From IMG/VR virus record IMGVR_UViG_3300045988_044299: DNA of 34,775 nt; one strand, given 5' to 3'. A program made the position numbers and the translations under genes. The stretch is from a virus. This document shows positions 7,887-25,170 of this stretch, one piece after another. The notes beneath the pieces were generated by a model, which saw only the letters and a program-made list of their open reading frames with translations, ran no database searches and was not told the DNA's origin. Position 1 is the first letter of the stretch. Each line of letters starts with the position of its first letter.

Positions 7887-9350
7887 ATGGATAAACAGAC
7901 ATTTATCAAGAAGATCGCCGCATACGTGAAAAAGTATGCGGCACAGTACGGCATCAAGGTATACAGTCCGATCATCGCACAGGCGATCCTGGAGTCCGGC
8001 TGGGGAGAATCAAAACTTGCAGCAGTATATCACAACTACTTCGGGCTGAAATGCGGAACTGCCTGGAAAGGTAAATCTGTAAACATGACCACACAGGAAG
8101 AGTACACGGCCGGAACCCTGACAACGATCAAAGATAACTTCAGAGCCTACAGCAGCATGGAAGAGGGCGTGAAAGGCTACTTCGAGTTCATTCAGCTGAC
8201 CAGATACAGCAACCTGAAGGGAATCACTGATCCGAAGACATATCTGAACACAATCAAAGCGGACGGATATGCGACAAGCTCCAGCTATGTGAAGAATGTG
8301 TATGCACTGATCACACAGTACAAGCTGACACAGTACGATCCTGTGAAAAACGTGGATAAAAAAGTGGATAATGTGAAGTATTCAAGACAGGCAGTCGTGG
8401 ATCTTGTGGAAAGCTGGGTAGGAAAGAAAGAGTCAGACGGATCATACAAGTCAATCATTGACATCTACAACAGTTTTACGGGCAAACTTCCACGTAGTAC
8501 GAAGATGGAATATGGATGGGCGTGGTGCGCGTGTACCTGGTCAGCACTTGCGGTAGCCTTGAAGTACACGCCGATCATGCCGATCGAAATTTCCTGCTAT
8601 TACCTGATCGAAGCAGCGAAGGAGATGGGCGTATGGGTAGAAAACGACGCATACGTGCCAAACATCGGAGACGCTGCACTGTATGACTGGGAAGACACAG
8701 GAAAAGGAGATAACACAGGAAATCCGGATCACGTCGGAACTGTGACCTATGTCAATAAGTCAGCAGGCTACTTCGTGGTGACAGAAGGAAACTACAGCGA
8801 CAGCGTGAAGAAAAGAACCGTGTCCATCAATGGCAGATATATCCGCGGATTTATCGTACCGAAGTACGGCACGACCACAGCAGTCAGTGCTCCGGTTCAG
8901 GTAGCCGGAAAGAGCACTTCAACCGTAGCACACGAAGTCATCGCCGGACAGTGGGGCAACGGGGAAGATAGAAAGAAAGCCCTGAAGGCAGCAGGATATG
9001 ATCCGGCAGTTATCCAGAAAGAAGTCAACAAGATCCTGAACGGATCCGCAGCGACTACAGGCAAAACACAGCCAGCAGATCAGCCGATTACAAAGACAGT
9101 GAAGGCAACCTGCGGAGCTAAGAAGTTCAACAAGAGCCTGGCAGCGACATACAAGACAACGGCGAACCTGTACTGTAGAAATGACGCAGGAAAGAACAAG
9201 AAAGCCCTGTGCCTGATCCCGAAAGGAACGAAGGTACACAACTACGGATATTACAACGTAGCGAACGGAGTGAAGTGGTTATACATCACTGTCACCCTGG
9301 ACGGAACAGAGTACATCGGATTCTGTTCAAAAGAATATCTGAGCAAATAG
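7887..9350 (+). CDS. Multidomain endolysin: N-acetylglucosaminidase, CHAP-like domain, CW_7 repeat and SH3-like C-terminus
   Basis: AQAILESGWG glucosaminidase motif. Cys/His CHAP-like region (WAWCACTW ... DHVGTV). GQWGNGEDRKKALKAAGYD CW_7-like repeat. The C-terminus is SH3b-like. Confidence 0.9.
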   Translation: MDKQTFIKKIAAYVKKYAAQYGIKVYSPIIAQAILESGWGESKLAAVYHNYFGLKCGTAWKGKSVNMTTQEEYTAGTLTTIKDNFRAYSSMEEGVKGYFEFIQLTRYSNLKGITDPKTYLNTIKADGYATSSSYVKNVYALITQYKLTQYDPVKNVDKKVDNVKYSRQAVVDLVESWVGKKESDGSYKSIIDIYNSFTGKLPRSTKMEYGWAWCACTWSALAVALKYTPIMPIEISCYYLIEAAKEMGVWVENDAYVPNIGDAALYDWEDTGKGDNTGNPDHVGTVTYVNKSAGYFVVTEGNYSDSVKKRTVSINGRYIRGFIVPKYGTTTAVSAPVQVAGKSTSTVAHEVIAGQWGNGEDRKKALKAAGYDPAVIQKEVNKILNGSAATTGKTQPADQPITKTVKATCGAKKFNKSLAATYKTTANLYCRNDAGKNKKALCLIPKGTKVHNYGYYNVANGVKWLYITVTLDGTEYIGFCSKEYLSK

Positions 9351-9692: not shown

Positions 9693-11084
9693 TCATAAAA
9701 AATTAATGTCCATGCTGCCGTCTTCATAGACTATAATAGATTCAACGAAAGACTTCCAGAAGACATTCTTTTCTGTTTTGCTGAAAGTACAATACATATC
9801 CTCCCAATTCTTAGAAAGCAGTTCCTGAACTGCGGAAAAATCACGAACGGGCGCAGATGGAACTTCGAGGCATTCTTTCAACTGGGCTTGCAGTTCATCA
9901 TACTTCTGTCTGTAAAGATCTTTTTCTATCAGATCATCAAGAAACAAATCATATAGTTTTTCTAATTTATGGCGGATCTTCGCTGCTTCGGCAGCAGGAT
10001 CCTTTTTTGATGCGCTGGAAGAAACGACATCATATTCAGCCATATAGCAAGAAAGCGCAGGACGAACATGATCGAGAAGATATTGTTCGATATATTCTTC
10101 CCGGTAAGTACGTGACCGATCGCAGAGCCGCGAGCTGGAATGATAGCCACAGCGATAGGAAACATAATCCTTGTGCGTGCCATCAGCAAGAGTATGCGGT
10201 ATAGTATAGGGAACGAGGTTATGCTGGCAACTGGAGCAGACGAGCAGACCAGTGAATATATAGTAACGTCTGGTTTTTCTCTGCCGGACGTTCTTTTTTG
10301 CAAGTTCAAGAAGATGATCGAAACGCTCCGGATCAATAAGCGGATCACAAAAATCAGGATCATCGCGGTACATGCCTTTATACAGAGGGTTCTTTAGTGC
10401 ACGGCTAACACCGTCATAACGAAGAAGAGGGCCGTATTTATTCGTAAGAAATTGAAAAGTGGAATAAATGCTGCCGCTGCTCTCAAAATGGTCAAACATA
10501 TCGAGCGCCCACTGTTTCCACTCCGGATCGTGAATGATATGCTTGTCAGCATCCAGCTTCAGGCCACGAGGAAGTCGACCGGATATATATGACTTGTTCT
10601 TTAGCTTATAAGCAAATACATCTTTTATACGATCGCTATCACGGTCACATTCGTCCTGAGCCACAGACAGACGGATATTGATATGCAGACGGCCGTTCGT
10701 CGTGGTAGTATCATAAGACTCAGTGATCGCCTTCCACTGTACACCGTTCACGTCGAGAATCTCCTGGATCTTGTGGTAGTCTCCGATATTACGGAACCAA
10801 CGGTCTAATTTTGTGAAGAGAATCATGTCAAAGGCATGAGCACGCACACCGTCCAGCAGGCGAACAAATTCTTTTCTTTTGGTATATCTTTTTCTGGCAG
10901 TCAGTGCTTCGTCCACGAAAGTGTCTACGAGCACCATATGATTCACTTCAATAAATTCATTCAGGAGCGTGTCCTGGGCTTCCAGAGTATCGCCATGCAG
11001 TACCTGACCTTCGTGGCTGCATCTTATGTATTTAACTACACGCAGGCCGTACAGTTCCGGCTGCGGATGAAAATATGTATTCAT
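9693..11084 (-). CDS. int: Large serine recombinase (phage integrase)
   Basis: N-terminal resolvase-type catalytic domain (YIRCSHEGQ), a recombinase domain, and a Cys-rich zinc-ribbon region (CSSCQHNL ... YRCGYH). ATG 11084 has an AGAAGG ribosome-binding site. The ORF track starts at GTG 11105. Confidence 0.9.
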   Translation of the reverse strand: MNTYFHPQPELYGLRVVKYIRCSHEGQVLHGDTLEAQDTLLNEFIEVNHMVLVDTFVDEALTARKRYTKRKEFVRLLDGVRAHAFDMILFTKLDRWFRNIGDYHKIQEILDVNGVQWKAITESYDTTTTNGRLHINIRLSVAQDECDRDSDRIKDVFAYKLKNKSYISGRLPRGLKLDADKHIIHDPEWKQWALDMFDHFESSGSIYSTFQFLTNKYGPLLRYDGVSRALKNPLYKGMYRDDPDFCDPLIDPERFDHLLELAKKNVRQRKTRRYYIFTGLLVCSSCQHNLVPYTIPHTLADGTHKDYVSYRCGYHSSSRLCDRSRTYREEYIEQYLLDHVRPALSCYMAEYDVVSSSASKKDPAAEAAKIRHKLEKLYDLFLDDLIEKDLYRQKYDELQAQLKECLEVPSAPVRDFSAVQELLSKNWEDMYCTFSKTEKNVFWKSFVESIIVYEDGSMDINFL

Positions 11085-11303
11085 AAAAAACCTTCTTTCT
11101 AACACAGAACCCTGAAAAGGGTATAAAAAATAAAGCTATGCAGCAACACAGCTTTATGCTAGAATAGAGGGTGTGATCCGTGTCTGTTCTTGGCGTAAAG
11201 CTGTGGAGCATAGACACATGAGAAGGGGCAGTCGTTGACGCGGCTGTCCTTTTTCATATTTTGACGAGATATGTGCATCCTACACTACACAGGAGGAAAG
11301 CAC

Positions 11304-11501
11304 ATGGAAGTCTTAACATGGCAAGCCAGGAACAAAAGAGGGATGACGCTGAAGCAGCTGGAAGCCGCCACAGGAATCGGGAAGACAACGCTGAACAATA
11401 TCGAAAACGGCCTTGTATCGCCTACGCTGAACCAGCTGGAAGCGATCGCCCGCGCCCTGGATGTCAAAATAAGTGATCTATATGATTCGGTTTACAAATA
11501 G
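11304..11501 (+). CDS. XRE-family helix-turn-helix protein (65 aa)
   Basis: HTH_3-type sequence (MTLKQLEAATGIGKTTLNNIENG ... PTLNQLEAIARALDV). AGGAGGA lies upstream of ATG 11304. Confidence 0.8.
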   Translation: MEVLTWQARNKRGMTLKQLEAATGIGKTTLNNIENGLVSPTLNQLEAIARALDVKISDLYDSVYK

Positions 11502-11627
11502 TATAGCAGGTTTGCGACAGCAGCAGTCGGTTTCTGGTGTTATTTCCCGAAATCGGGAAACAAGTACCGATCACCTTTATTCTTCCATAATTTGAGATAT
11601 AATGAAACCAGAAGGAAGGTGATGCGG

Positions 11628-11738
11628 ATGGACATACGCCAGAAGATCGACGCACTGCTCCAGAAGATCACTTCGGAGGATCAGCTAAAGCGGATCTACA
11701 GATTCGTAAAGTACATATACATACATACTCCGAAGTGA
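11628..11738 (+). CDS. Small hypothetical protein (36 aa)
   Basis: GAAGGAAGG ribosome-binding site 8 nt upstream. A perfect TATAAT lies at 11598-11603. A terminator follows. Confidence 0.35.
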   Translation: MDIRQKIDALLQKITSEDQLKRIYRFVKYIYIHTPK

Positions 11739-11744
11739 GAAAAA

Positions 11745-11774
11745 GGGAATCCATATGGGTTCCCTTATTTTTTT
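11745..11774. terminator. Bidirectional terminator between convergent genes
   Basis: 8-bp stem gggaatcc/gggttccc (one G-U pair) with loop atat. An A-run lies on the left and a T-run on the right. Confidence 0.6.
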
Positions 11775-12136
11775 GTGTCTTCCTTCAGGAATCGCTTCCG
11801 GATCTCCTGCTTCAGGTAGTCCCGAACCTGCTCCGGCATTTCTATATACATTTCTACCAGAGTCCTGTCCAGATCATCCAGATCGTACTGCGCACACAAT
11901 TCGTCGAGAACTGTCTGCGGCAGGTCGTCAAACATTTCCCCTTCGCCGTTCATTAAGAAATCATAATTTACATTAAATTCGCGACAGATCGAAAGCACCA
12001 TCTGATCAGTGACATTATTAACACCGTTTTCGATGCGGCTGACGGTCTGCTTTTTTACGCCAACTTTTTCGCCGAACTTGTCAAGTGTAAGGCCTAAAGC
12101 CTTGCGGACTTCTTTCACGCGTTCGCCTTGCGTCAT
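11765..12136 (-). CDS. CI-like XRE-family repressor
   Basis: N-terminal HTH (LTLDKFGEKVGVKKQTVSRIENG) plus a C-terminal extension. It is divergently oriented to the early genes. ATG 12136 with a GAAGGTGA ribosome-binding site is preferred over GTG 12145. Confidence 0.8.
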   Translation of the reverse strand: MTQGERVKEVRKALGLTLDKFGEKVGVKKQTVSRIENGVNNVTDQMVLSICREFNVNYDFLMNGEGEMFDDLPQTVLDELCAQYDLDDLDRTLVEMYIEMPEQVRDYLKQEIRKRFLKEDTKK

Positions 12137-12160
12137 GTCATTCACCTTCTTTCTGATTAC

Positions 12161-12189
12161 ACAATACCACGTTGAATATAAAAGGTCAA
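12161..12189 (-). promoter_or_regulatory. Candidate sigma-70-type promoter for the repressor gene
   Basis: On the minus strand: TTGACC, 17 nt, TATTGT. Confidence 0.45.
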
Positions 12190-12220
12190 CAAAAAAGTTC
12201 CGTACAGTGACAAAAATATG

Positions 12221-12249
12221 TTGACAAAGTTACGTAAAGAGACTATCAT
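12221..12249 (+). promoter_or_regulatory. Candidate early rightward promoter
   Basis: TTGACA, 17 nt, TATCAT. An 8-bp palindrome ttacgtaa (12230-12237) lies in the spacer. Confidence 0.5.
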
Positions 12250-12283
12250 GTAAATATACGGAACAGAAGGGAGATGAAAAGAG

Positions 12284-12529
12284 ATGTTCGGAATAAGACG
12301 AGCGTTTAAAAATGACGAAGAAAGAGACGAATACTTCGGGGTTCTGGAAAAGCTGGGAGAAAGGGAGTACACACCTGCCGAACTTAGAGAATTTCACAAG
12401 ATTCTGAAAAAATACGGAGGCGGACTCCCACTCCCGAGGCGTTATCCGTGGGTGCCGACAGTCATATCACTGGTTGCGTTGGTATTCAGCGTTGTAGTGC
12501 TATTACTGAAATTATTAGTGATCCAATAG
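12284..12529 (+). CDS. Small C-terminally membrane-anchored hypothetical protein
   Basis: 81-aa ORF with a GGGAGA-type ribosome-binding site and a hydrophobic C-terminal segment (VPTVISLVALVFSVVVLLLKLLV). Confidence 0.5.
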   Translation: MFGIRRAFKNDEERDEYFGVLEKLGEREYTPAELREFHKILKKYGGGLPLPRRYPWVPTVISLVALVFSVVVLLLKLLVIQ

Positions 12530-12779
12530 AAATCACTACCGAGATCCACCACTTCATATAGGAAATGCGAAAATCATAGATCGCTGCACGGCCTTGTGGA
12601 GTGGTGCGGTACACGGGTAACGAGTGAGAGGTCGCCGGACGAGAATAGCAGATATATTTTTGGTCTAACAAGTAAGATAAATTCTCACTATGTTCTTTTT
12701 TTATAGATTCTCCTGGAACGACCTTGCGACGCTTGATTTTTGAAAGAAGCCAGTATTGAGAAAAATCCAATTCAGCCAC
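12486..12779 (-). CDS. Hypothetical protein with a C-terminal transmembrane segment
   Basis: Strong AAGGAAGGAGGG ribosome-binding site 8 nt before GTG 12779. The C-terminus is hydrophobic (WWISVVISIGSLIISVIAL). Confidence 0.55.
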   Translation of the reverse strand: MAELDFSQYWLLSKIKRRKVVPGESIKKEHSENLSYLLDQKYICYSRPATSHSLPVYRTTPQGRAAIYDFRISYMKWWISVVISIGSLIISVIALQR

Positions 12780-12833
12780 GAGAAAATCCCTCCTTCCTTT
12801 GTTTTTTCAGCCGTTACTCAGACTGATAACTAA

Positions 12834-12862
12834 AGTATAGGATCGCAACAGAGGGAAAGCAA
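12834..12862 (-). promoter_or_regulatory. Candidate promoter for the 12779-12486 gene
   Basis: On the minus strand: TTGCTT, 17 nt, TATACT. Confidence 0.4.
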
Positions 12863-12886
12863 GGAAAACTGAGAGGAGATGAAAAG

Positions 12887-12973
12887 ATGAAATACTACGG
12901 AGTTCCGATCATCTGCGGGATAATCGGGGCACTCATAGGAATCGCTATATCACACGCAATAGGATTGCTGTAA
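12887..12973 (+). CDS. Possible 28-aa hydrophobic peptide
   Basis: Translation is MKYYGVPIICGIIGALIGIAISHAIGLL, with a GAGGAG ribosome-binding site. It is very short, so confidence is low. Confidence 0.35.
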   Translation: MKYYGVPIICGIIGALIGIAISHAIGLL

Positions 12974-13021
12974 TGATGGAACGGGTAATGCCAATACAAA
13001 GTAAAAAAAGGAGGAATGAAC

Positions 13022-13189
13022 ATGGCAGCAGTTGACAGAAGAAAAGAAACTGTAAACCGTAAGGCCGAAGACGCACGTGAGTTCGTTGAACTGCTGGAGC
13101 AGCTGACAGAAGCAGACAAGGAAAGAATCAAGTACGTTATGATCGGCCTGAAGATGGGCGAAACAGTTCGCGCAGGATTGACGGCATAG
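13022..13189 (+). CDS. Small hypothetical protein (55 aa), paralogue of 15522-15665
   Basis: AGGAGG ribosome-binding site. It shares the first 16 nt (acatggcagcagttga) and a C-terminal pattern with the second copy. Confidence 0.5.
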   Translation: MAAVDRRKETVNRKAEDAREFVELLEQLTEADKERIKYVMIGLKMGETVRAGLTA

Positions 13190-13250
13190 GATGTCCCCGA
13201 CAGAAATGTCGGGGAGTACATAGAAAAGGAGAAAACGAGGAGGGACAGGC

Positions 13251-13799
13251 ATGACAACGAAAGAACAGGAAAGACAGGCAATCGAAGAGATCAGAAAGAT
13301 CGTGGAAGGGCTTGGAGAAAATAGTTATGTAGGGTTTGCAATGGAGGGCGTTCTGGAGCTGGCAGAGGAAAACATCAGAGAAGACACTGCGTACAGTATG
13401 AAACGCTGCGCAGAGATCGCGCAGGAACAAACAGACGAGCTGAAGGAAGAGATCAAGACACTAAAGAAAAGAAATGAAACCATACACAGAGTTGAGATAG
13501 AAAACAAGGATGCAGCCGCCAGACTGAGCCTGGAAAACGAAAGATTAAGAAAAGAAATAAAAGAAAATCAGATCCCGGAAGAGCTGATGCACGAATGTTA
13601 CTGCATGGCATATGACAAAGAAGCAGGAGCACAGAAAAAGATGGAGCAGGCAGCGGATCAGATGGCAGAGGCAGCAATAAAAGGAGAAGACACACAGAGC
13701 CTTGCGAAAGAATACCAGGCACAGAAAAGCAACAGAAGAAGATACGAGAAAATCATGCAGCAGTTAGACAAGATAGAGAAAAGGAAGGCGGGAAGATAA
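13251..13799 (+). CDS. Coiled-coil hypothetical protein
   Basis: 182-aa E/K/Q-rich ORF with a GAGGAGGG ribosome-binding site. Confidence 0.6.
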   Translation: MTTKEQERQAIEEIRKIVEGLGENSYVGFAMEGVLELAEENIREDTAYSMKRCAEIAQEQTDELKEEIKTLKKRNETIHRVEIENKDAAARLSLENERLRKEIKENQIPEELMHECYCMAYDKEAGAQKKMEQAADQMAEAAIKGEDTQSLAKEYQAQKSNRRRYEKIMQQLDKIEKRKAGR

Positions 13800-13987
13800 T
13801 GGCAAGAACAAAGAAAAGCGGCTTCCGAAGATGTCCGATCTGTGGACACCACGCTGATCGGAAAGACATGCGGTACACGACAGACGCAAACGGGATCCGG
13901 TGCAGACTGGTCTGCTGGGACTGCTACGATCAGATCATGGTGAAAGGCTATGACGATGCAGACGTGAACGAAGGCTATGAATATTAA
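13799..13987 (+). CDS. Small Cys-rich (zinc-ribbon-like) protein
   Basis: Contains CPICG ... CRLVCWDC. Its start overlaps the previous stop (TAATG). Confidence 0.55.
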   Translation: MARTKKSGFRRCPICGHHADRKDMRYTTDANGIRCRLVCWDCYDQIMVKGYDDADVNEGYEY

Positions 13988-14002
13988 GCGAAGGGCACAG
14001 GA

Positions 14003-14332
14003 ATGGCAATCAAAAGAACGGTAGAAACAGACGTTTACTGCGATGTGTGTGGCGAGTGGATCATAGGCTGGAGATCCAACGACCAGGGAACCAGCAAACT
14101 ATGGGCGGCATATTTTGCAAGAAAAAAAGGCTGCACAGTTGGGGAAAAGGTTATATGCAAAAAGTGCAGGATCAAGAAGCGGATCCAGACATGCAGCATA
14201 CAGCGAAAAATCGGAAGTGCAGGAAGGGACAGCGATGGAAGCTGCATGGGATTCGGAAGCGAAACATCAGACGAGCCACTGGAGAAGTGCAAACGGTGTA
14301 TTGCGTGCACATCTTACCAGTGGAAAGAATAG
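14003..14332 (+). CDS. Cys-rich hypothetical protein
   Basis: Contains CDVCG ... CKKC ... CKRCIAC motifs. Confidence 0.55.
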   Translation: MAIKRTVETDVYCDVCGEWIIGWRSNDQGTSKLWAAYFARKKGCTVGEKVICKKCRIKKRIQTCSIQRKIGSAGRDSDGSCMGFGSETSDEPLEKCKRCIACTSYQWKE

Positions 14333-14346
14333 TTCAAAGGATAGAA

Positions 14347-14409
14347 GCCGAAACGGTCAGCAATGACCGTCCACCGGAGATAACCTCCCGGTGCTGACGA
14401 TGGCAGGTT
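14347..14409 (+). ncRNA. Type II hammerhead ribozyme, copy A (predicted cleavage after C14371)
   Basis: Order of elements: GCC, GAAA, stem III (cggtca-gcaa-tgaccg), U, C (GUC site), stem I (caccgg ... ccggtg), CUGACGA, U, GGC. The stem I loop aacct can pair with aggtt at 14405-14409. Confidence 0.8.
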
Positions 14410-14494
14410 GAAGTCAGGTGTTCAAGCAGAGCAACGCTATAAAAGGAAAATGCACTTCCGCAGGAAGCATGGATAGCGCAAAGGAGGCAAAAGA

Positions 14495-14806
14495 ATGAAA
14501 CTGAAAGAATTAACGAACAACCAGAAACGCAGAGACTTTCTGGAGGACTATACCGGATGGAATTTATGGCTCACTGTGCCGGATGTAAGCGAGAAGTATT
14601 ATTCGTATCCACTTCCAGACAACTCAATGATTGTAGTCAAAGAAACCGAACACGCAAAAGGTGATGACTGGTGGAAAAAGGATGAGCGTGGCGGTTATTA
14701 CGTCACCACAGAGTATTATCTTCTGGAGGGTGATTGGAAGAGATTTGCAGACTGCAAAAAGAGCAAGACACAGATTATCGAGCATCTGAGAGAAATCATG
14801 AGATGA
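14495..14806 (+). CDS. Hypothetical protein (103 aa)
   Basis: ORF with an AAGGAGG ribosome-binding site. Confidence 0.6.
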   Translation: MKLKELTNNQKRRDFLEDYTGWNLWLTVPDVSEKYYSYPLPDNSMIVVKETEHAKGDDWWKKDERGGYYVTTEYYLLEGDWKRFADCKKSKTQIIEHLREIMR

Positions 14807-14882
14807 GGAAAGAACAGGGACATCATGAAAGACTATGACAATGCAGATATGAACAAAGATTACGAATATTAAGGAGGGCAAC

Positions 14883-15239
14883 ATGTTTATTTTATCACAG
14901 AACAAAGAGAAGCTGTACAACCTGTCCGGACACATTGAAGGAATCGGGTACGAAGAGACAAAGGAGTATGTCAAAGGAAAGAAGGAAGACAAGATCAGAC
15001 ACACACTCATGGTGTATGACGGATGCTGTGAAGAAGTAGCAGAGTACGAAACAAAAGAGGATTGTATGCTGATCCTGTATGCGGTCTTCAAAGCAATGGA
15101 ACAGGGAGAGAATGCACTGGAGCTTCCAACACAGGAAGAAACGGCCAAACAGAAGGAACTTATGAAACAGGTTATTGAAGCAGGCGGCGAGATCGCAAAA
15201 GAAGCGACGGAGTTGCTGAAGGAAATGTTCAAAGGATAG
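14883..15239 (+). CDS. Hypothetical protein (118 aa)
   Basis: ORF with an AAGGAGGG ribosome-binding site. Its last codons overlap the conserved 5' flank of hammerhead B. Confidence 0.6.
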   Translation: MFILSQNKEKLYNLSGHIEGIGYEETKEYVKGKKEDKIRHTLMVYDGCCEEVAEYETKEDCMLILYAVFKAMEQGENALELPTQEETAKQKELMKQVIEAGGEIAKEATELLKEMFKG

Positions 15240-15241
15240 AA

Positions 15242-15314
15242 GCCGAAACGGGGCACAGGCCCCGTCCGGTCACGATGGCAACGTGATCGCTGACGATGGC
15301 AAGCTGAAAGCCAT
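15242..15314 (+). ncRNA. Type II hammerhead ribozyme, copy B (predicted cleavage after C15266)
   Basis: Order of elements: GCC, GAAA, stem III (cggggc-acag-gccccg), U, C, stem I (cggtcacg-atggcaa-cgtgatcg), CUGACGA, U, GGC. The stem I loop atggc can pair with gccat at 15310-15314. Confidence 0.8.
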
Positions 15315-15521
15315 CCGATGAACATTGTGAAAACATAGCGGCGCGTGCAGGCTGCCAGAATCCCGCATAGTAGGTCATCAGGTTTTGAGCAGCTTTTTAA
15401 TGAGAAAAGCGCAGCACAGTGTCACACATTGCCAGGAAGGGAGTGGTGATATACATGACTGCATCACACGGATGCAGATAGACCATGCCGAAAGGCAGTA
15501 CATAGAAAGGAAGTGAGCTAC

Positions 15522-15665
15522 ATGGCAGCAGTTGAGAACAACAGGCCTGATCCCATGAAGGCATTCAAAGCGATCGCCATGATCCTGAACGCAAGAGAAG
15601 AAGGCGTGAAGGTACGCCTGACGAGCGTCAGGAAGGTAGAAGAAGATGTCAGAAAAGCAGGGTAA
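15522..15665 (+). CDS. Small hypothetical protein (47 aa), paralogue of 13022-13189
   Basis: The ATG context is identical to the first copy. A 10-bp-stem hairpin follows at 15672-15705. Confidence 0.45.
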   Translation: MAAVENNRPDPMKAFKAIAMILNAREEGVKVRLTSVRKVEEDVRKAG

Positions 15666-15860
15666 AAGAAAAGCCTTCCGGTATGCTTGGCGGCTCCGGA
15701 AGGCTACACAATGGCTTCCAGACAATGCTGAGAACCAAAGTACACATCAATAGTATTGTACAGCAGACGACAGCGGAAGTCAACAAAGCCGCGCATTTCT
15801 TGAACGTCTTAAATCGGCCTTGTAATGGATACTAACAAGTCTACGAAGGAAGTATAAGAC

Positions 15861-16775
15861 ATGAGTAAGAGAAAGAGAAGGACTGTATATGTCCCATACG
15901 ACTATGAAGCAGCATATCAGAACAGCCTGGAACAGATGGAGGAAGAGAACGAGAAGAGACTCCTGAAGGAAGGCAAGGTGAAGAACATATATGCCACAAA
16001 GGAGATCAGATCGGGAGATCAGTTGGAGATTGAAATATATCCAGAGTTCACAAGGAGACAGGAGAACCAGATCCCGGATGAAGGAAGAAGAAAGAAACAG
16101 AGACAGGCACAGAAGAACCTGAACGATAAGAACAGCAGGAAGATGTGCGAGCGCCTGATCCTGGAGAACTTCGACAATAGGGATATATGGGCGACATTTA
16201 CATACACAGAAGAACCTGAGACGCTGGAAGAAGCGGTCAGGAACATGCAGAACTTCATCAAGAGACTGAACTACAAGCGTAAGAAGATGGGACTGAAGAA
16301 CGCGAGGTATGTCTATACAACAGAGTGCGGAAGCAAGGGAAGGTTCCATCACCATATCGTCATGGATGGAGATCTGGACATGGACACAGTGGAAGCGACC
16401 TGGAACAAGGGCAAGAGGAACCACCTTCGCAGATTGCAGAAAGACGAAAACGGACTTGTAGGTGCTGCAAGGTACATCACAAAAGAAAAAGAGAGAAAGA
16501 GCAAATACCAGAAGACATGGAACGCTTCCACAGGGCTGAGAAAGCCAAAGGAGAAAGTGAACCACTACAAGACGAAACAATATCATGTAAACAGGATCGT
16601 GAAGGGGGATCTGAAGATCTGCGACCACCTGACAAAATGGTACGGCGACATGTATGAGTTCGCAGAGGCAGAAGTGAAGTACAACACCTTCAACGGACGA
16701 TTCTACATATACGCACGAATGCGAGCGAAAGGAGCAAAGAAAGAAGATGAACATGCGATACGCAAGAAGGAGTGA
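15861..16775 (+). CDS. HUH-type rolling-circle replication initiator-like protein (Rep)
   Basis: GRFHHHIVMD is an HUH motif. A downstream ARYITKE tyrosine motif is present. The N- and C-termini are basic. Confidence 0.7.
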   Translation: MSKRKRRTVYVPYDYEAAYQNSLEQMEEENEKRLLKEGKVKNIYATKEIRSGDQLEIEIYPEFTRRQENQIPDEGRRKKQRQAQKNLNDKNSRKMCERLILENFDNRDIWATFTYTEEPETLEEAVRNMQNFIKRLNYKRKKMGLKNARYVYTTECGSKGRFHHHIVMDGDLDMDTVEATWNKGKRNHLRRLQKDENGLVGAARYITKEKERKSKYQKTWNASTGLRKPKEKVNHYKTKQYHVNRIVKGDLKICDHLTKWYGDMYEFAEAEVKYNTFNGRFYIYARMRAKGAKKEDEHAIRKKE

Positions 16776-17205
16776 AGACACGGAGCAGATCAACGTGATC
16801 AGCTGGGCGATGTGGAACGAGAACGCACACCCGGAGCTGAAGCTGCTGCATCACTGCCCGAATGGCGGAAGTCGGAACAAGGCCGAAGCCGTGAAGCTGA
16901 AACAGATGGGCGTCAAAGCAGGAATTCCTGATCTGAGCCTTCCAGTGCCGAAGGGCATCTATAACGGTCTGTACATCGAGATGAAGTACGACAAAGGAAC
17001 GATAGAAAAGAGCCAGAAGGAAATGCTGAAAGCCCTGGCAGACGCAGGGCACTACTGCGTTGTATGTTACGGGGCAGAAGAAGCAATCAAGATCCTGAAA
17101 GAGTACATAAACCTGAAGCCGATCGACACAGGAAAGGGCGAGGACACGATGCTGTGTCAGAATCTGACCGTACACAAAAACAGGAAAGTGTCACCGATGC
17201 GATAG
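16747..17205 (+). CDS. VRR-NUC domain nuclease
   Basis: PD-(D/E)xK pattern: HCPNGGSRNKAEAVKLKQMGVKAGIPDLSL ... LYIEMK ... SQKEML. Confidence 0.8.
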   Translation: MNMRYARRSEDTEQINVISWAMWNENAHPELKLLHHCPNGGSRNKAEAVKLKQMGVKAGIPDLSLPVPKGIYNGLYIEMKYDKGTIEKSQKEMLKALADAGHYCVVCYGAEEAIKILKEYINLKPIDTGKGEDTMLCQNLTVHKNRKVSPMR

Positions 17206-17214
17206 GAGGCTACG

Positions 17215-17472
17215 ATGGACGAATACGCAGAAGCAGTCAGAAGGTTCTACGAGGCATACAGACCGATCGCAAGAAGGCACAACCTGAGACTGCACAGCAA
17301 GTTCTCGATGTACGATGACGGCTTCATAAAGATCTTCCAGGGCGAAGGCCAGGACAAGAAGCAGATCATCAAAGTGGAAGAGAAAGACGATGCGCTGTGC
17401 TACAGGAGAGCTATGGACGCAGTGATCAGCTGGGAGGAAGGAAGAAGAAAGGAACAACAGGCGGCAAGCTAG
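17215..17472 (+). CDS. Hypothetical protein (85 aa)
   Basis: ORF with a TAGGAGG ribosome-binding site. Confidence 0.55.
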   Translation: MDEYAEAVRRFYEAYRPIARRHNLRLHSKFSMYDDGFIKIFQGEGQDKKQIIKVEEKDDALCYRRAMDAVISWEEGRRKEQQAAS

Positions 17473-17494
17473 AAAGAACAGGAGGTACACATCA

Positions 17495-18274
17495 ATGAAA
17501 ATTATCACAGTAATGAACCAGAAAGGCGGGATCGGTAAGACGATGACAGCGGCATCACTTGCCTATATCCTGGGACAGGAACACGGAAAGAAGGTGCTGC
17601 TGGTGGATGCAGACCAGCAGGGAAACGTATCAATGCTGTACGATCGCTTCGAGCCGGAAGGGATCGGCATGTCGGAACTATTGGAGAAACACAGAAGTAC
17701 AGGAGGTACATATAGCACGACAGAGCTGATCCAGACAACTCCATACGACAATGTGGATATTATCCCGGCGAACGGATATTTGATGCGGACAAACATGCAG
17801 CTGCTGCTGAATGAGAAGGAAGATCAGATCATCAGATTCGCGGCGGCCATGCTGGAGGTACAGGACGCATACGACTATTGCATAGTGGACTGTGGACTAC
17901 TGATGGACATGACAGTCACAAACGTACTTGTAGCGACGGATCTGCTGATCCTGCCTGTCAAGGTTGGAGGCTTCGAGGTGGAAGCAATCGCAAACATGGC
18001 GGAGCAAGTAGAAGATCTTCGAGGACTGAACGAAGGAATCAAGATCAAGGTGCTGATGACCATGAGACAGAAGAACCAGACAAGTCTTCAGGTAGAGCAG
18101 TGGCTGAAAGAGTCGTCTGGACAGGAATGCTTCGAGACATCAGTCAGACGTTCGATTGTAGCAGAGAAGGCAACTATGCAGCGTGTGCCGCTTCCGGCGT
18201 TTTCAAAAAGCTGCATCGTGACAAAAGACTACAGAGAAGTAGCCAGGGAGATCCTGGAAGAAATGGAGGAGTAA
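17495..18274 (+). CDS. parA: ParA-family partition ATPase
   Basis: Deviant Walker A motif NQKGGIGKTMTA. Length and layout are typical of ParA/Soj. Confidence 0.9.
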   Translation: MKIITVMNQKGGIGKTMTAASLAYILGQEHGKKVLLVDADQQGNVSMLYDRFEPEGIGMSELLEKHRSTGGTYSTTELIQTTPYDNVDIIPANGYLMRTNMQLLLNEKEDQIIRFAAAMLEVQDAYDYCIVDCGLLMDMTVTNVLVATDLLILPVKVGGFEVEAIANMAEQVEDLRGLNEGIKIKVLMTMRQKNQTSLQVEQWLKESSGQECFETSVRRSIVAEKATMQRVPLPAFSKSCIVTKDYREVAREILEEMEE

Positions 18275-18277
18275 ACA

Positions 18278-19567
18278 ATGGCAGCAGGCTGGAGCGTTAT
18301 GGACGCACTGAACAGAAACAGCAAGGCAGCGGCAGAGGATAAGCCGCGAGCAAGGTTCCGTACAAAGGACATCAGCATCAGGAAGATGTACAGCAACGAT
18401 CGGAACTTCTACAGCATGAACGGCATAGAAAAGCTGGCACAGGAGATCTTGACAGTCGGACTCCTGGAGAACATGACAGTCATGTATGCGCCGTGTGAGC
18501 GTGGAGAGTACCGGATCATAGCAGGGGAAAGACGATGGAGAGCATTGCAGCTCCTGCTGAAGAAAGGCTATGAAGAGTTTGAGATCGCAACATGCCAGAT
18601 CAAGAGCGTAGCGGAAGAACACGAAGAAATGGTCAACATCATCATGGCAAACGCATACCGCGATAAGACTATGGCGGATCTGCTCCAGGAAGAGCAGCAG
18701 CTGAGAAAGTCACTCCAGTACATGAAGGACAACGGCTTGACACTTCAAGGCTATACACTGGACAGCGGACGCCTTCGTGATGTGATCGCTTCGATCATGC
18801 AGATGTCGGGAACGAAGATCGCACAGATCGACTCCATCAATGAGCGACTGATCCCTGAGTTCACGGAGCAGCTGAAAGAAGGACGACTGACATTCAGTGC
18901 AGCGTATGAGATCAGCGGCATGGATCAGGAACAGCAGCAGGACATGCTGGAGAAGAGTCAGGAGTCCGGCGGGCTGACTTGGAAAGAAGTGAAAGAAGCA
19001 AAGGCAGCGGCAGAAGAACCAGAAGAGCCGGAAGAAGCAGAGAGACAGGAACCGGAGCAGGAAGAAACAACAAAACCAGGAGACGACTATGAGACGCCAC
19101 ATCCGGAAGGGATCACGTCGATCTGCTACGGATGCAGCAGGTATCTGGAGTGCAACGTGAAGACATCGACCTGCACCAGCTGCGACCAGTACATAGACAA
19201 GAAAGAAGCTGAGAAAACAGAACAGCAGCGTTATGACGAAGAGCAGGCGGCAATCGACAGAGAAACAAAGAGAAAGCTGCAAGAGCGAGAGCAGGAAGAG
19301 AAGATGCAGCATCTTCCTTCAGACGACAAGAAAAAAACGATCCGGCTGTCCTGCGATGCGTTCGACCGGATCAGAAACAAGACACAGACCTTCCTGATCG
19401 TGAAGTCCACAGAGATCAGCGAAAGCAGTACGATCATAGCGATGGAGTTCAGAGAGGGCAGGGCGACAGGAGAGCAGATGCAGCTGAGAGTGAACCACCT
19501 GGAAGACAGCAGCACATCGTCGGCACTGGTAGATGGCTACTGTGTTATCGGGATAGAAGAAGCATAG
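18278..19567 (+). CDS. parB: ParB-like protein with an extended acidic linker, a Cys-rich segment and an extra C-terminal domain
   Basis: ParB N-terminal domain with the IAGERRWRA arginine box. It lies directly downstream of parA. Confidence 0.85.
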   Translation: MAAGWSVMDALNRNSKAAAEDKPRARFRTKDISIRKMYSNDRNFYSMNGIEKLAQEILTVGLLENMTVMYAPCERGEYRIIAGERRWRALQLLLKKGYEEFEIATCQIKSVAEEHEEMVNIIMANAYRDKTMADLLQEEQQLRKSLQYMKDNGLTLQGYTLDSGRLRDVIASIMQMSGTKIAQIDSINERLIPEFTEQLKEGRLTFSAAYEISGMDQEQQQDMLEKSQESGGLTWKEVKEAKAAAEEPEEPEEAERQEPEQEETTKPGDDYETPHPEGITSICYGCSRYLECNVKTSTCTSCDQYIDKKEAEKTEQQRYDEEQAAIDRETKRKLQEREQEEKMQHLPSDDKKKTIRLSCDAFDRIRNKTQTFLIVKSTEISESSTIIAMEFREGRATGEQMQLRVNHLEDSSTSSALVDGYCVIGIEEA

Positions 19568-19580
19568 GGAGGAAGGAAGA

Positions 19581-20027
19581 ATGAAACTGAACAAGATCAC
19601 GGAATGGATCAAGAAGCAGATCACAAGACATAAGAATAACAGCGGACAGATTGACCGGGATCCGGAGCGACTGCCTACGTTCGTGTCGAAACGAATGAAC
19701 CTGCCAGTCGGAGCGAAGGAAGCGGCCGAAAAGAAAATAAAAATTGACTGCACTGTAAGTTCATATAATGCCAGCACAGACGAAATAGCAAAGGCACTGG
19801 AGAAACTGGGGAAAGTAGGGTATACGATAGGCGAGAAGGAAGGAACACAAAAGGAACAGCCTATGAGCAACAATCGCCGCAAGATGAAAGGGATCCCGAT
19901 GATCAGACGGCAGCAGCTGAGAAGAGCACAGAGGAATCGGAGAAAAAAGACGAACGGCTGGCAGCAGTTGGGAGAGAGAAAGTATTGGAACCAGGAGGAG
20001 AACGCATGGTATACACACAAGCAGTGA
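19581..20027 (+). CDS. Hypothetical basic protein containing a 66-bp copy of a terminase-large-subunit segment
   Basis: ORF with a GGGAGGAAGG ribosome-binding site. 19661-19726 is about 94% identical to 24395-24460. Confidence 0.5.
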   Translation: MKLNKITEWIKKQITRHKNNSGQIDRDPERLPTFVSKRMNLPVGAKEAAEKKIKIDCTVSSYNASTDEIAKALEKLGKVGYTIGEKEGTQKEQPMSNNRRKMKGIPMIRRQQLRRAQRNRRKKTNGWQQLGERKYWNQEENAWYTHKQ

Positions 20028-20383
20028 GACGCGGAGACATATATTACATAAACAACGATCGCGGACAGATCGGCAGCGAAATGAAGAAGGATCGTCCGGC
20101 GGTGGTCGTGTCGAATGACATGAACAACCGATATAGCAATGAGATCACGGTGGTGTTCCTGACATCAAAACCGAAGAAGAACCTGGAAACACATGTCACA
20201 GTCTACAGTACAGGGCGCGAGTCGGTCGCCCTGTGTGAAGGAATGACAACACTGGACAAGCAGAGGACAGGGAAGTTCCTGGGAAGAATGAGCAGAAAAG
20301 AGATGGACGCTATCGACAAGGCACTGGGCGTTGCGATCGGAATAGACCGGAAAGAAGAGGGGGGGGGACATGATGGTGGATAA
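20006..20383 (+). CDS. MazF/PemK-family toxin (endoribonuclease)
   Basis: Matches the family pattern: RGDIYYI ... GSEMKKDRPAVVVSND ... ITVVFLTS ... THV ... LDKQR. AGGAGGAG lies 5 nt upstream of ATG 20006. Confidence 0.85.
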   Translation: MVYTQAVRRGDIYYINNDRGQIGSEMKKDRPAVVVSNDMNNRYSNEITVVFLTSKPKKNLETHVTVYSTGRESVALCEGMTTLDKQRTGKFLGRMSRKEMDAIDKALGVAIGIDRKEEGGGHDGG

Positions 20384-25154: not shown

Positions 25155-25170
25155 CGAGGAGGTGAGGACA

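What the first reader, a model, noticed from the sequence alone, without database searches (positions are those of the whole stretch)
14332..14415. Type II hammerhead ribozyme A in an early-gene intergenic region
Reading 5' to 3', the sequence is gcc GAAA cggtca-gcaa-tgaccg U C / caccgg-(agataacctc)-ccggtg CUGACGA u ggc.
- This contains all hammerhead core elements in the type II circular permutation, in which stem II is open.
- G12-A13-A14 is followed by an A15.1:U16.1 pair closing a 7-bp stem III.
- The cleavage triplet is GUC (C17 = 14371).
- Stem I has 6 bp.
- The core C3-A9 is CUGACGA.
- Stem II is formed by GGC (14402-14404) and GCC (14347-14349). A single unpaired U lies after A9.
- The stem I loop aacct (14382-14386) is complementary to aggtt (14405-14409) just 3' of stem II. 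Type II hammerheads use this kind of pseudoknot.
Basis: partly seen in the sequence, partly recalled or inferred. Interest (0 to 1): 0.85.

Follow-up and report, generated by a model that had tools for sequence, protein, structure and literature searches.

The report
Ordinary phage type II hammerhead ribozyme
This is a genuine but ordinary self-cleaving hammerhead RNA, one of two that bracket a pair of small early genes in a gut-bacterium phage, a kind of element and arrangement first described in 2011.

Summary
Positions 14346-14412 (+) hold a complete type II hammerhead: core CUGACGA, GAAA, a 7-bp stem III, cleavage after C14371, a 6-bp stem I, a 3-bp stem II with one inserted U, and a 6-bp pseudoknot between loop I and the 3' tail. 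It passes Rfam's curated threshold for RF02276 (42.8 bits; cut-off 37).

A second copy, HH-B (15241-15309), lies 895 nt downstream on the same strand. The two bracket two small ORFs in the early/replication operon of a ~34.7-kb temperate Lachnospiraceae phage.

More than 120 viral contigs carry the same subclass. All helices covary, including the pseudoknot.

The most likely role is self-cleavage that cuts the long early transcript into gene-sized mRNAs with hairpin-capped ends. Perreault et al. (2011) proposed this for clustered prophage hammerheads. Cleavage itself is inferred, not shown.

Additional points:
- About 70% of copies start within a few bases of the upstream stop codon.
- HH-A is missing from one near-identical phage, so it is dispensable.
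- Mixed arrays argue against circular-RNA formation as a general role.

Verdict: real and correctly read, but a routine member of a known family in its known context. Interest is low.

The parts
14346..14412 (+). Hammerhead A (HH-A), complete type II hammerhead ribozyme
   Evidence: Rfam RF02276 42.8 bits, above the gathering score of 37, full model. Custom model R1 71.8 bits. The minimum free-energy fold equals the hammerhead structure.
14347..14349 (+). Stem II 5' strand GCC (11.3-11.1). It pairs with GGC 14402-14404.
   Evidence: Sequence. Stem II covaries across copies not fixed by the pattern: GCC/GGC, GGC/GCC, GUC/GAC, UGC/GCA.
14350..14352 (+). Core G12-A13-A14. G12 is the general base in the established hammerhead mechanism.
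   Evidence: Sequence. Invariant in alignment A2, partly because the search pattern fixed it.
14353..14370 (+). Stem III hairpin: A15.1:U16.1 plus CGGUCA/UGACCG, loop GCAA. It forms the 3'-terminal hairpin of the upstream cleavage product.
   Evidence: Sequence. 95.8% of cells paired, and 4 of 4 variable pairs change on both sides across 90 sequences.
14371..14371 (+). C17. The predicted scissile bond is between C14371 and C14372.
   Evidence: Position follows from the core alignment. The triplet is GUC in 126 of 133 distinct related copies. Cleavage itself was not tested.
14372..14393 (+). Stem I hairpin: CACCGG/CCGGUG with 10-nt loop AGAUAACCUC. It forms the 5'-terminal hairpin of the downstream product.
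   Evidence: Sequence. 93.9% paired, and 7 of 7 pairs change on both sides.
14394..14400 (+). Core C3-A9 = CUGACGA
   Evidence: Sequence. It matches the CUGANGA consensus.
14401..14401 (+). Inserted U between A9 and G10.1, a trait of this subclass
   Evidence: Rfam aligns it as an insertion. In 133 distinct related copies the base after A9 is U in 104, and G (no insertion) in 22.
14402..14404 (+). Stem II 3' strand GGC (10.1-10.3)
14405..14410 (+). 3' tail AGGUUG. It pairs with loop I UAACCU 14381-14386 to form the pseudoknot.
   Evidence: The pseudoknot columns covary across 90 copies. In near-identical phages the U14381.G14410 wobble becomes C:G (L136) or U:A (L134).
15241..15309 (+). Hammerhead B (HH-B), the second type II hammerhead. 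C17 = 15266, stem III 7 bp, stem I 8 bp, 4-bp pseudoknot UGGC/GCUG.
   Evidence: Rfam 32.9 bits, below the gathering score of 37, E = 0.0045. Custom model 64.7 bits. Descriptor hit. Minimum free-energy fold equals the hammerhead. Conserved upstream of Rep in relatives at ~76% identity.
14003..14332 (+). Upstream 109-aa ORF of unknown function. Stop TAG 14330-14332, with a second in-frame TAG at 14342-14344 that ends 1 nt before HH-A.
14495..14806 (+). 103-aa ORF, the first gene on the predicted 895-nt A-to-B fragment. RBS AAAGGAGG lies upstream.
   Evidence: phrog_15077, unknown function. No NCBIfam or PDB match.
14883..15239 (+). 118-aa ORF, the second gene on the A-to-B fragment. Its stop TAG ends 1 nt before HH-B.
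   Evidence: No family match.
14323..14356 (+). 34-nt repeat (gene 3' end plus the hammerhead 5' part), repeated at 15218-15251 with 91% identity
   Evidence: family D4. The same flank precedes the single hammerhead of prophages L163 and L147.
14333..14476 (+). 144-nt segment (TTCAAAGGATAGA + HH-A + 64-nt spacer) that is absent from the near-identical phage contig L123. In the window it is bounded by ATAGnnCAAAGGA at both ends.
12221..12249 (+). Promoter-like site (TTGACA-17-TATCAT, 11 of 12 matches) next to the divergent cI-like repressor gene. It is the candidate early promoter for the transcript that carries both ribozymes.
   Evidence: Consensus scan only. No + strand terminator-like site between here and 17500.

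Best explanation
HH-A is a functional type II hammerhead ribozyme of the pseudoknot class, lying in the rightward early operon of a temperate Lachnospiraceae siphovirus.

Proposed mechanism:
1. As the long early transcript is made, stems III and I fold as hairpins. GCC 14347-14349 pairs with GGC 14402-14404 to form stem II. Loop I (UAACCU 14381-14386) pairs with the 3' tail (AGGUUG 14405-14410), which docks stem I against stem II.
2. The core then catalyses attack of the C14371 2'-OH on the adjacent phosphate. By the established hammerhead mechanism, G12 (G14350) acts as general base and the G8 (G14399) 2'-OH as general acid.
3. The RNA is cut between C14371 and C14372.
4. The upstream mRNA keeps its stop codon and ends in the stem III hairpin with a 2',3'-cyclic phosphate.
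5. The downstream mRNA starts with a 5'-OH directly at the base of the stem I hairpin.
6. Together with HH-B (cut after C15266), this releases an 895-nt dicistronic mRNA (103-aa and 118-aa ORFs) from the upstream genes and from the origin/Rep/ParAB segment. The segments can then have separate stabilities and expression levels.

Shown here: the motif, its family membership, covariation of all helices, its exact intercistronic placement, and its recurrence in many phages. Inferred: cleavage itself, co-transcription from one promoter, and the effect on mRNA fate.
For: - Rfam hit above the curated threshold, covering the full model.
- All core positions are consensus, and the helices adjacent to the core are paired.
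- In 90 distinct copies from viral contigs, 89% of cells are paired against 64% in shuffles, with 0 of 500 shuffles reaching the observed value. Stems III and I are 94-96% paired with changes on both sides at every variable pair. The pseudoknot covaries. Slid controls drop to 28-44%.
- Stem II covaries in copies not fixed by the pattern.
- Microvariants in phages 95-98% identical preserve or strengthen pairing. A C17-to-A change in one HH-B copy stays within the allowed H17.
- Placement is tight. The stop of a frame of at least 50 codons ends within -6 to +2 nt of the first ribozyme base in 100 of 147 viral copies (control 3.8%) and in 29 of 41 copies from bacterial genomes (control 4.0%). The next ORF starts a median 34 nt after stem II.
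- There is a promoter-like site at 12221 and no + strand terminator-like site through Rep.
- Clusters of same-strand hammerheads occur with a median spacing of 708 nt.
- Literature: clustered prophage hammerheads cleave in vitro, and the A. tumefaciens ones also in vivo; processing of long phage transcripts was proposed (PMC3088659). Three type II copies near phage genes in D. vulgaris cleave in vivo (PMC8782182).
Against: - No cleavage, RNA-end or expression data exist for this locus.
- The inserted U14401 next to the most conserved stem II pair departs from the strict consensus. I found no assay of this exact subclass. The nearest precedent, an extra A at the same place in the CChMVd(+) hammerhead, moderately lowers the rate (PMC1636495).
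- HH-A is absent from one otherwise 97-98% identical phage contig, L123, so it is not essential.
- In the 146-nt context the minimum free-energy fold replaces stem II with other pairings, including CUGAC 14394-14398 with GUCAG 14413-14417.
- The promoter and terminator evidence comes from consensus scans only.
- The idea that the terminal hairpins protect the products rests on general knowledge of bacterial mRNA decay. It was not tested here.
Confidence: 0.78

Rival explanations
1. The pair HH-A/HH-B defines a unit that is excised and circularised, as in retrozymes or viroid-like RNAs. After both cuts, the 895-nt RNA (14372-15266) folds its ends into a chimeric hammerhead (5' half of B plus 3' half of A). 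It is then religated by the ribozyme or by an RtcB-type ligase into a circular mRNA. The phage's reverse transcriptase (5723-6874) might copy it back into DNA.
For: - A and B have identical stem II strands, so the chimera keeps a 3-bp stem II.
- The 895-nt insertion relative to L163-type prophages is bounded by a 34-nt repeat that includes the hammerhead 5' part.
- The phage encodes an RVT_1 protein.
- Hammerheads can ligate, and retrozymes use this route (PMC7761336).
Against: - In 9 of 47 adjacent pairs in other arrays the chimeric stem II is broken (1 bp or fewer), while each ribozyme's own stem II is intact. Cross-compatibility is therefore not selected.
- The unit is protein-coding with normal RBSs, and has no retrozyme features.
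- The cassette boundaries in relatives are explained by ordinary recombination at repeated gene ends.
- Perreault et al. looked for circular or spliced products from prophage arrays and found none.
- The RT sits next to tail-fibre-like genes, which is the usual place for a diversity-generating retroelement.
Confidence: 0.04
2. The hammerhead matters mainly at the DNA level. It is a conserved intergenic linker that travels with gene 3' ends and provides short homology for module exchange between phages. RNA cleavage is incidental or only weakly selected.
For: - The HH-A body plus ~37 nt of spacer recurs at 88% identity in an otherwise unrelated context in L120.
- The 5' flank plus AGCCGAAACGG is shared by A, B and the single hammerhead of L163/L147.
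- HH-A is present or absent among near-identical phages.
- The whole region is a patchwork of repeats.
Against: - A DNA linker would not need compensatory changes that keep three helices and a pseudoknot paired while the core stays invariant.
- It would not need one fixed strand relative to the genes or a fixed position at stop codons.
- The 885-nt indel junction lies in a repeated gene end, not in a hammerhead.
- This reading can be true in addition to RNA cleavage rather than instead of it.
Confidence: 0.1
3. HH-A is a decaying or crippled copy. The inserted U and the competing downstream helix make it inactive in vivo, so it is a passenger relic.
For: - The U14401 insertion lies next to the 10.1-11.1 pair.
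- HH-A is lost in L123 without other changes.
- An alternative helix forms in the longer fold.
Against: - The inserted U is the majority state of a large, strongly covarying subclass (104 of 133 copies), not a private defect.
- HH-A is identical or carries only pairing-preserving changes in 10 related contigs.
- All strictly conserved core bases are intact.
- Its Rfam score is higher than that of HH-B.
Confidence: 0.06
4. Chance resemblance: two hairpins near CTGANGA and GAAA motifs.
For: CTGACGA alone occurs 7 times on the + strand of the window.
Against: - E = 1.1e-5 against all of Rfam.
- 0 of 200 shuffles give a descriptor hit with both stems of 6 bp or more.
- The same architecture with covariation occurs in more than 120 viral contigs and 33 stretches of bacterial genome contigs.
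Confidence: 0.005

Closest known systems
Rfam RF02276, type II hammerhead ribozyme (Perreault et al. 2011, PMC3088659)
   Same: - Same core and the same circular permutation (stems I and III capped, stem II open and short).
- Same pseudoknot between loop I and the 3' tail.
- Same habitat: prophages near integrases.
- HH-A scores above the family's gathering threshold.
   Different: - It belongs to a subclass with N7 = C and one inserted U between A9 and G10.1 (CUGACGA-U-GGC), which Rfam aligns as an insertion.
- HH-B falls below the Rfam threshold (32.9 against 37), although it is clearly genuine.
Clustered prophage hammerheads flanking single genes: C. scindens, A. caulinodans and the A. tumefaciens ardA array (PMC3088659); D. 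vulgaris loci 2 and 3 (PMC8782182)
   Same: - Several same-strand hammerheads a few hundred nt apart, bracketing one or two small phage genes of varying identity.
- The proposed role is cutting long phage transcripts into gene-length mRNAs.
- Those examples cleave in vitro, and some in vivo.
   Different: - This locus has no experimental data.
- The near-exact abutment to the upstream stop codon (about 70% of copies) and the presence/absence polymorphism of one copy are quantified here. I did not find them stated in the passages of those papers that I read.
CChMVd (+) hammerhead with an extra A10 between A9 and G10.1 (De la Pena and Flores 2001, as cited in PMC1636495)
   Same: A natural hammerhead that tolerates one extra nucleotide at exactly the position of U14401.
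   Different: - It is a type III viroid ribozyme.
- The extra base is A, and it has a separate role in viroid folding.
- It moderately lowers the cleavage rate.
Retrozymes and viroid-like RNAs (hammerhead repeats that release circular RNAs; PMC7761336)
   Same: Two same-strand hammerheads 600-1000 nt apart. The ends of the excised RNA could rebuild a ribozyme.
   Different: - Retrozymes are non-coding eukaryotic retroelements with type I or III ribozymes.
- Here the unit encodes two proteins in a DNA phage operon, the ribozymes are type II, and neighbouring copies in related arrays are often not cross-compatible.
Pseudoknot hammerhead crystal structure, PDB 8YDC (PMC11300833)
   Same: - A pseudoknot supplies the tertiary contact.
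- Same catalytic strategy (G12 base, G8 2'-OH acid).
- Fast cleavage.
   Different: In that construct the pseudoknot replaces helix II and comes from an extra stem-loop. Here a short stem II is kept, and the pseudoknot joins loop I to the 3' tail.

Membership tests
Hammerhead ribozyme, type II (RF02276) | Core C3-A9 = CUGANGA | tested here: met
   CTGACGA at 14394-14400.
Hammerhead ribozyme, type II (RF02276) | Core G12-A13-A14 followed by the A15.1:U16.1 pair | tested here: met
   GAAA at 14350-14353. A14353 pairs with U14370.
Hammerhead ribozyme, type II (RF02276) | Cleavage-site nucleotide H17 (A, C or U, not G) | tested here: met
   C14371, giving triplet GUC, as in 126 of 133 related copies.
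Hammerhead ribozyme, type II (RF02276) | Three helices around the core in the type II permutation: stems I and III closed by loops, stem II open | tested here: met
   The minimum free-energy and centroid folds of 14346-14412 give exactly this, as does the Rfam alignment.
Hammerhead ribozyme, type II (RF02276) | Watson-Crick pairs directly adjacent to the core (N1.1-N2.1, N10.1-N11.1, A15.1-U16.1; Perreault's acceptance criteria) | tested here: inconclusive
   C14372:G14393 and A14353:U14370 are paired. G14402:C14349 is adjacent to the core only if U14401 is bulged out. Read strictly, 10.1 would be U opposite C. The insertion is the majority state of the subclass.
Hammerhead ribozyme, type II (RF02276) | Pseudoknot of 4 or more bp between loop I and the nucleotides just 3' of stem II | tested here: met
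   UAACCU 14381-14386 pairs with AGGUUG 14405-14410 (5 Watson-Crick pairs plus one U.G). It covaries across 90 copies, and the wobble is made Watson-Crick in L134 and L136.
Hammerhead ribozyme, type II (RF02276) | Covariance-model score at or above Rfam's gathering threshold | tested here: met
   HH-A scores 42.8 bits against a threshold of 37. HH-B does not meet it, at 32.9 bits.
Hammerhead ribozyme, type II (RF02276) | Helices supported by compensatory changes in homologues | tested here: met
   In one search the core and stem II are invariant by construction of the search pattern.
Hammerhead ribozyme, type II (RF02276) | Mg2+-assisted self-cleavage giving a 2',3'-cyclic phosphate and a 5'-OH | not testable with these tools
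   Needs in vitro transcription or RNA-end mapping.
Prophage hammerhead cluster (polycistronic mRNA processing; Perreault 2011) | Two or more same-strand hammerheads flanking one gene or a short block of genes in a prophage | tested here: met
   A and B are 895 nt apart and bracket the 103-aa and 118-aa ORFs. The phage context is shown by recombinase, repressor, Rep, terminase, portal and capsid genes.
Prophage hammerhead cluster (polycistronic mRNA processing; Perreault 2011) | Both ribozymes lie within a single long transcript | tested here: inconclusive
   All genes are co-oriented, with a promoter-like site at 12221 and no + strand terminator-like site up to 17500. These are consensus scans only.
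Retrozyme-like circular RNA unit | The ends of the excised RNA can rebuild a functional ribozyme (cross-compatible neighbouring copies) | tested here: inconclusive
   Met for the window pair (3-bp chimeric stem II). It fails in 9 of 47 adjacent pairs elsewhere, so it is not a selected property.
Retrozyme-like circular RNA unit | Non-coding unit that accumulates as circular RNA | tested here: not met
   The unit carries two ORFs with RBSs. Circular RNA could not be tested.

The most novel reading that the evidence does not exclude
In Clostridia phages, type II hammerheads are the 3' terminal part of portable early-gene cassettes (gene, stop codon, ribozyme, RBS). They act as RNA processing sites. 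Through their invariant core and flanks they also act as preferred recombination junctions that let cassettes be gained, lost and swapped, and in compatible pairs such as A/B they may go through an excised, religated RNA intermediate.

The evidence does not exclude this:
- HH-A is a discrete present/absent module.
- Its body recurs in an unrelated context.
- The 895-nt insertion relative to single-hammerhead relatives is bounded by a repeat that includes the hammerhead 5' part.
Probability: 0.1. Interest if true: 0.6.

Novelty: already known. Interest (0 to 1): 0.2.

Why it matters
The identification is sound but adds only one more copy to a ribozyme family of thousands, in the genomic setting where it was first reported. 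The biological role of these phage ribozymes is still unproven after fifteen years.

This locus offers a convenient natural test. Near-identical phages exist with both ribozymes, with only HH-B, or with HH-A precisely removed. Comparing mRNA ends, half-lives and protein output of the flanking genes across these variants could show what cleavage actually does.

The tight stop-codon abutment, and the fact that type II cleavage leaves a hairpin on both new RNA ends, suggest a specific and testable reason why this permutation is used between cistrons.

Tried and rejected
- **Phage record search.** A blastn 'distant' search of 13200-16800 against GenBank phage records gave no annotated close relative. 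There were two marginal hits, one being the hammerhead itself in Dulem virus 39.
- **Genome scan with Rep.** A genome-contig scan with the Rep protein found no relatives. The second scan, with a hammerhead DNA pattern, gave 33 stretches, nearly all in Lachnospiraceae and Oscillospiraceae.
- **More hammerheads in the window.** Rfam at E up to 1, the custom model with filters off, and the descriptor all find only A and B.
- **tRNAs near the ribozymes.** None in the window.
- **Function of the flanked genes.** Pfam, PHROGs, NCBIfam and PDB sequence searches gave nothing usable for the 109-, 103-, 118- and 47-aa ORFs.
- **Similarity between flanking ORFs.** The 109-aa ORF shows no blastp similarity to the 118-aa or 103-aa ORF, so the A/B repeat is not a simple tandem gene duplication.
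- **Circular-RNA reading.** Tested through stem II cross-compatibility of neighbours. It is not generally conserved.
- **HH-A as a mobile insertion.** The 144-nt HH-A indel might have been a mobile insertion with a target-site duplication. I rejected this in favour of deletion in L123 between the ATAGnnCAAAGGA repeats, because the left repeat plus TAGA-AGCC is already present in the distant relatives L163 and L147.
- **Experimental data on the subclass.** A search of Perreault's supplementary text for the exact CUGACGAUGGC subclass found nothing. The Jimenez/Luptak human-microbiome paper is not in the library.
Full report
**1. The observation**

The sequence at 14346-14412 (+) reads AGCC GAAA CGGUCA-GCAA-UGACCG U C CACCGG-AGAUAACCUC-CCGGUG CUGACGA U GGC AGGUUGAA.

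- The Rfam type II hammerhead model (RF02276) matches over its full length at 42.8 bits. The family's gathering score is 37, and E = 1.1e-5 for the whole window, both strands and all 4227 families.
- A simple descriptor finds two sites in the window. It requires GAAA, an A..U-closed stem III of at least 4 bp, H17, a stem I of at least 4 bp, and CUGANGA.
- Dinucleotide shuffles of the window give a mean of 0.185 such hits. None of 200 shuffles gave a hit with both stems of 6 bp or more.
- The isolated RNA adopts exactly the hammerhead secondary structure as its minimum free-energy and centroid fold.

**2. A second copy and the setting**

A permissive Rfam scan finds a second type II hammerhead at 15241-15309 on the same strand, here called HH-B. 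It scores 32.9 bits, below the gathering score. A model built from related copies scores A at 71.8 bits and B at 64.7 bits. Nothing else in the window exceeds 10.9 bits.

The predicted cleavage sites, C14371 and C15266, are 895 nt apart. They bracket two small ORFs of unknown function, 14495-14806 (103 aa) and 14883-15239 (118 aa).

The window is a temperate siphovirus genome:

| Feature | Coordinates |
|---|---|
| Large serine recombinase | 9693-11105 (-) |
| cI-like repressor | 11765-12145 (-) |
| Rolling-circle-type Rep | 15861-16775 |
| VRR-NUC | 16747-17205 |
| ParA | 17495-18274 |
| ParB | 18278-19567 |
| MazF-like toxin | 19985-20383 |
| Terminase | 23487-25154 |
| Portal | 25162-26334 |
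| Capsid | 27149-28333 |
| Tape measure | 30940-33771 |
| Reverse transcriptase | 5723-6874 |
| Endolysin | 7887-9350 |

Metagenome contigs of 34.3-34.9 kb are 95-100% identical to the region I compared (window 11000-20000). The window is therefore probably a whole, circularly permuted phage genome.

The nearest prophages, at about 76% identity, are in *Fusicatenibacter faecihominis*, *Hominifimenecus microfluidus* and a human-gut genome-catalogue assembly, MGYG-HGUT-00065.

A promoter-like site (11 of 12 matches) lies at 12221-12249. The scan found no + strand terminator-like site from there to 17500. Both ribozymes would therefore lie inside one long early transcript. This step rests on consensus scans only.

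**3. Comparative evidence**

It also found 33 stretches in bacterial genomes, nearly all Lachnospiraceae and Oscillospiraceae.

I aligned 88 distinct viral copies together with A and B and counted pairs:

- Stem III is 95.8% paired, and 4 of 4 variable pairs change on both sides.
- Stem I is 93.9% paired, and 7 of 7 pairs change on both sides.
- The loop I/3'-tail pseudoknot is 70% paired, and 6 of 6 pairs covary.
- No shuffle out of 500 reaches the observed pairing or covariation.
- Sliding the partners by 1-3 columns drops pairing from 89% to 28-44%.

The core and stem II were fixed by my search pattern in that set. I therefore examined hits from a descriptor that does not constrain stem II. 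There stem II covaries (GCC/GGC, GGC/GCC, GUC/GAC, UGC/GCA). The base after A9 is U in 104 of 133 copies and absent (G next) in 22.

Among phages 95-98% identical to the window, the few substitutions are informative:

- U14381 to C in L136 turns the U.G pseudoknot pair into a Watson-Crick pair.
- G14410 to A in L134 does the same.
- The analogous loop change occurs in HH-B of L136.
- One HH-B copy (L126) has C17 to A, which is still an allowed H17.

**4. Placement**

Hammerheads of this kind sit almost exactly at the end of the upstream gene.

- The stop codon of an open frame of at least 50 codons ends within -6 to +2 nt of the first ribozyme base in 100 of 147 distinct viral copies. Random positions in the same loci give 3.8%.
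- The figure is 29 of 41 in the independent bacterial-genome set, against 4.0% for the control.
- The stop often overlaps the first one or two ribozyme bases.
- The next ORF starts a median 34 nt after stem II.
- In the window, HH-B begins 1 nt after the TAG of the 118-aa ORF.
- HH-A begins 13 nt after the TAG of the 109-aa ORF and 1 nt after a second in-frame TAG.

Because cleavage falls about 25 nt beyond the stop, the upstream message keeps its stop codon. In the type II permutation, the upstream product ends in the stem III hairpin and the downstream product begins at the base of the stem I hairpin. My inference, from general knowledge of bacterial mRNA decay, is that both new ends are thereby shielded. 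This was not tested.

**5. Natural variants**

Scanning the near-identical contigs with the model and aligning them shows three states:

- **Both ribozymes**, as in the window.
- **HH-B only** (L124, L125, L127, L128, L126). The 62-aa ORF runs directly into the 118-aa ORF. The 885-nt block (109-aa ORF, HH-A, 103-aa ORF) is missing, with the junction inside a repeated gene end (13936-13988 and 14821-14873).
- **HH-A precisely removed** (L123). Window 14333-14476 is absent, and the 109-aa stop is followed at once by the RBS of the 103-aa gene. The missing 144 nt are bounded in the window by ATAGnnCAAAGGA repeats.

The left repeat plus the hammerhead start is already present in the distant relatives L163 and L147. 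There a single B-type hammerhead follows the 109-aa homologue. L123 is therefore best read as a deletion. HH-A is thus dispensable, at least in one natural lineage.

The body of HH-A plus about 37 nt of spacer recurs at 88% identity in an unrelated context in L120. There it is followed by an RBS and a gene start. In the window only an 8-codon remnant of that start survives (14450-14476). The region is a recombinational patchwork in which hammerheads travel with gene ends.

**6. How it most likely works**

The best-supported reading is ordinary hammerhead self-cleavage that cuts the early polycistronic RNA at gene boundaries. A and B together would release an 895-nt dicistronic mRNA. Perreault et al. 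proposed this for clustered prophage hammerheads. Their arrays cleave in vitro, and the *A. tumefaciens* array also cleaves in vivo (PMC3088659). Three type II copies near phage genes in *D. vulgaris* cleave in vivo (PMC8782182).

The circular-RNA alternative is not excluded for this pair, because the stem II strands of A and B are identical. Across arrays, however, the chimeric stem II is broken in 9 of 47 adjacent pairs while each copy's own stem II is intact. Perreault et al. also found no circular products.

The inserted U has a natural precedent at the same position in the CChMVd(+) hammerhead, where an extra A moderately lowers the rate (PMC1636495). I found no assay of this exact subclass.

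**7. Comparison with what is known, and verdict**

HH-A meets every sequence and structure criterion of the type II hammerhead family that can be tested here. The exception is the strict adjacency of the 10.1-11.1 pair to the core, which depends on bulging U14401. Catalysis could not be tested.

The class, the pseudoknot, the prophage habitat and the gene-flanking clusters are all in the 2011 description. The individual copy is undescribed, but a routine Rfam annotation would label it.

I therefore rate the finding as already known in kind, correct in interpretation, and of low interest. Three modest additions come out of this work: the quantified stop-codon abutment, the natural presence/absence series, and the evidence against cross-compatibility of neighbouring copies.

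Noticed in passing
window 15241-15309 (+): A second type II hammerhead (HH-B; C17 = 15266) falls below Rfam's gathering score (32.9 against 37) but is clearly genuine. It scores 64.7 bits with a subclass model, folds correctly, and is conserved upstream of Rep in prophages only ~76% identical. Routine Rfam annotation would miss it.
   Followed up: yes
window 15345-15368 (hairpin), within the conserved stretch 15310-15470: The non-coding stretch just 3' of HH-B, about 500 nt upstream of the rolling-circle-type Rep gene, is better conserved than the neighbouring coding sequence (78-81% against 72-76%). It holds a 7-bp hairpin whose stem sequence changes but stays paired in 8 relatives (96% paired; 6 of 7 pairs change on both sides). 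The 10-nt loop CTGCCAGAAT is identical in 7 of the 8. It is a candidate replication-origin nick-site hairpin, or a structured 5' leader exposed by HH-B cleavage.
   Followed up: partly
L001-L120 and L137-L169 (viral and bacterial loci); window 14330-14346 and 15237-15241: About 70% of type II hammerheads of this kind begin within -6 to +2 nt of the stop codon of the upstream ORF (controls ~4%), often sharing bases with it. The next ORF starts a median 34 nt after stem II. I did not find this stated in the passages of the papers I read.
   Followed up: yes
window 14333-14476; L123 5590-5605: HH-A with its flanks (144 nt) is precisely absent from one 97-98% identical phage contig, between ATAGnnCAAAGGA repeats. 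A separate set of contigs lacks the whole 885-nt block (109-aa ORF, HH-A, 103-aa ORF), joined within a repeated gene end (13936-13988 / 14821-14873). This is a natural allelic series for testing ribozyme function.
   Followed up: yes
window 14450-14476: An 8-codon mini-ORF (ATGCACTTCCGCAGGAAGCATGGATAG) with an upstream RBS-like AAAGGAAAA. It appears to be the remnant of the gene start that follows the same hammerhead in L120, that is, a recombination scar.
   Followed up: partly
window 14394-14398 with 14413-14417: In the 146-nt fold, the core bases CUGAC pair with GUCAG just 3' of the pseudoknot tail. GTCAGG is also present after the related copy in L120. This could be a competing, inhibitory conformer or chance.
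   Followed up: no
window 5723-6874 (+), next to 3724-4941: A reverse transcriptase (RVT_1) gene lies between a DUF6273 tail-fibre-like gene and the lysis genes. This is the usual position of a diversity-generating retroelement. Template and variable repeats were not searched for.
   Followed up: no
L126 5260-6316 and L134 7028-8084 (inserted at about window 15511): Two near-identical phages carry an extra 84-aa ORF plus a 269-aa HNH endonuclease gene, inserted between the conserved hairpin region and the 47-aa ORF upstream of Rep. It may be a homing-endonuclease cassette.
   Followed up: no
L003, L025, L077, L070 (viral contigs): Some phage contigs carry very large same-strand hammerhead arrays (at least 11, 10, 8 and 5 copies within about 8 kb). 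L025 and L077 mix stem II classes within one array.
   Followed up: partly
window 17495-20383: The phage carries ParA/ParB partition genes and a MazF/PemK-like toxin next to its serine recombinase. This suggests it may be able to persist as a plasmid-like episome as well as integrate.
   Followed up: no
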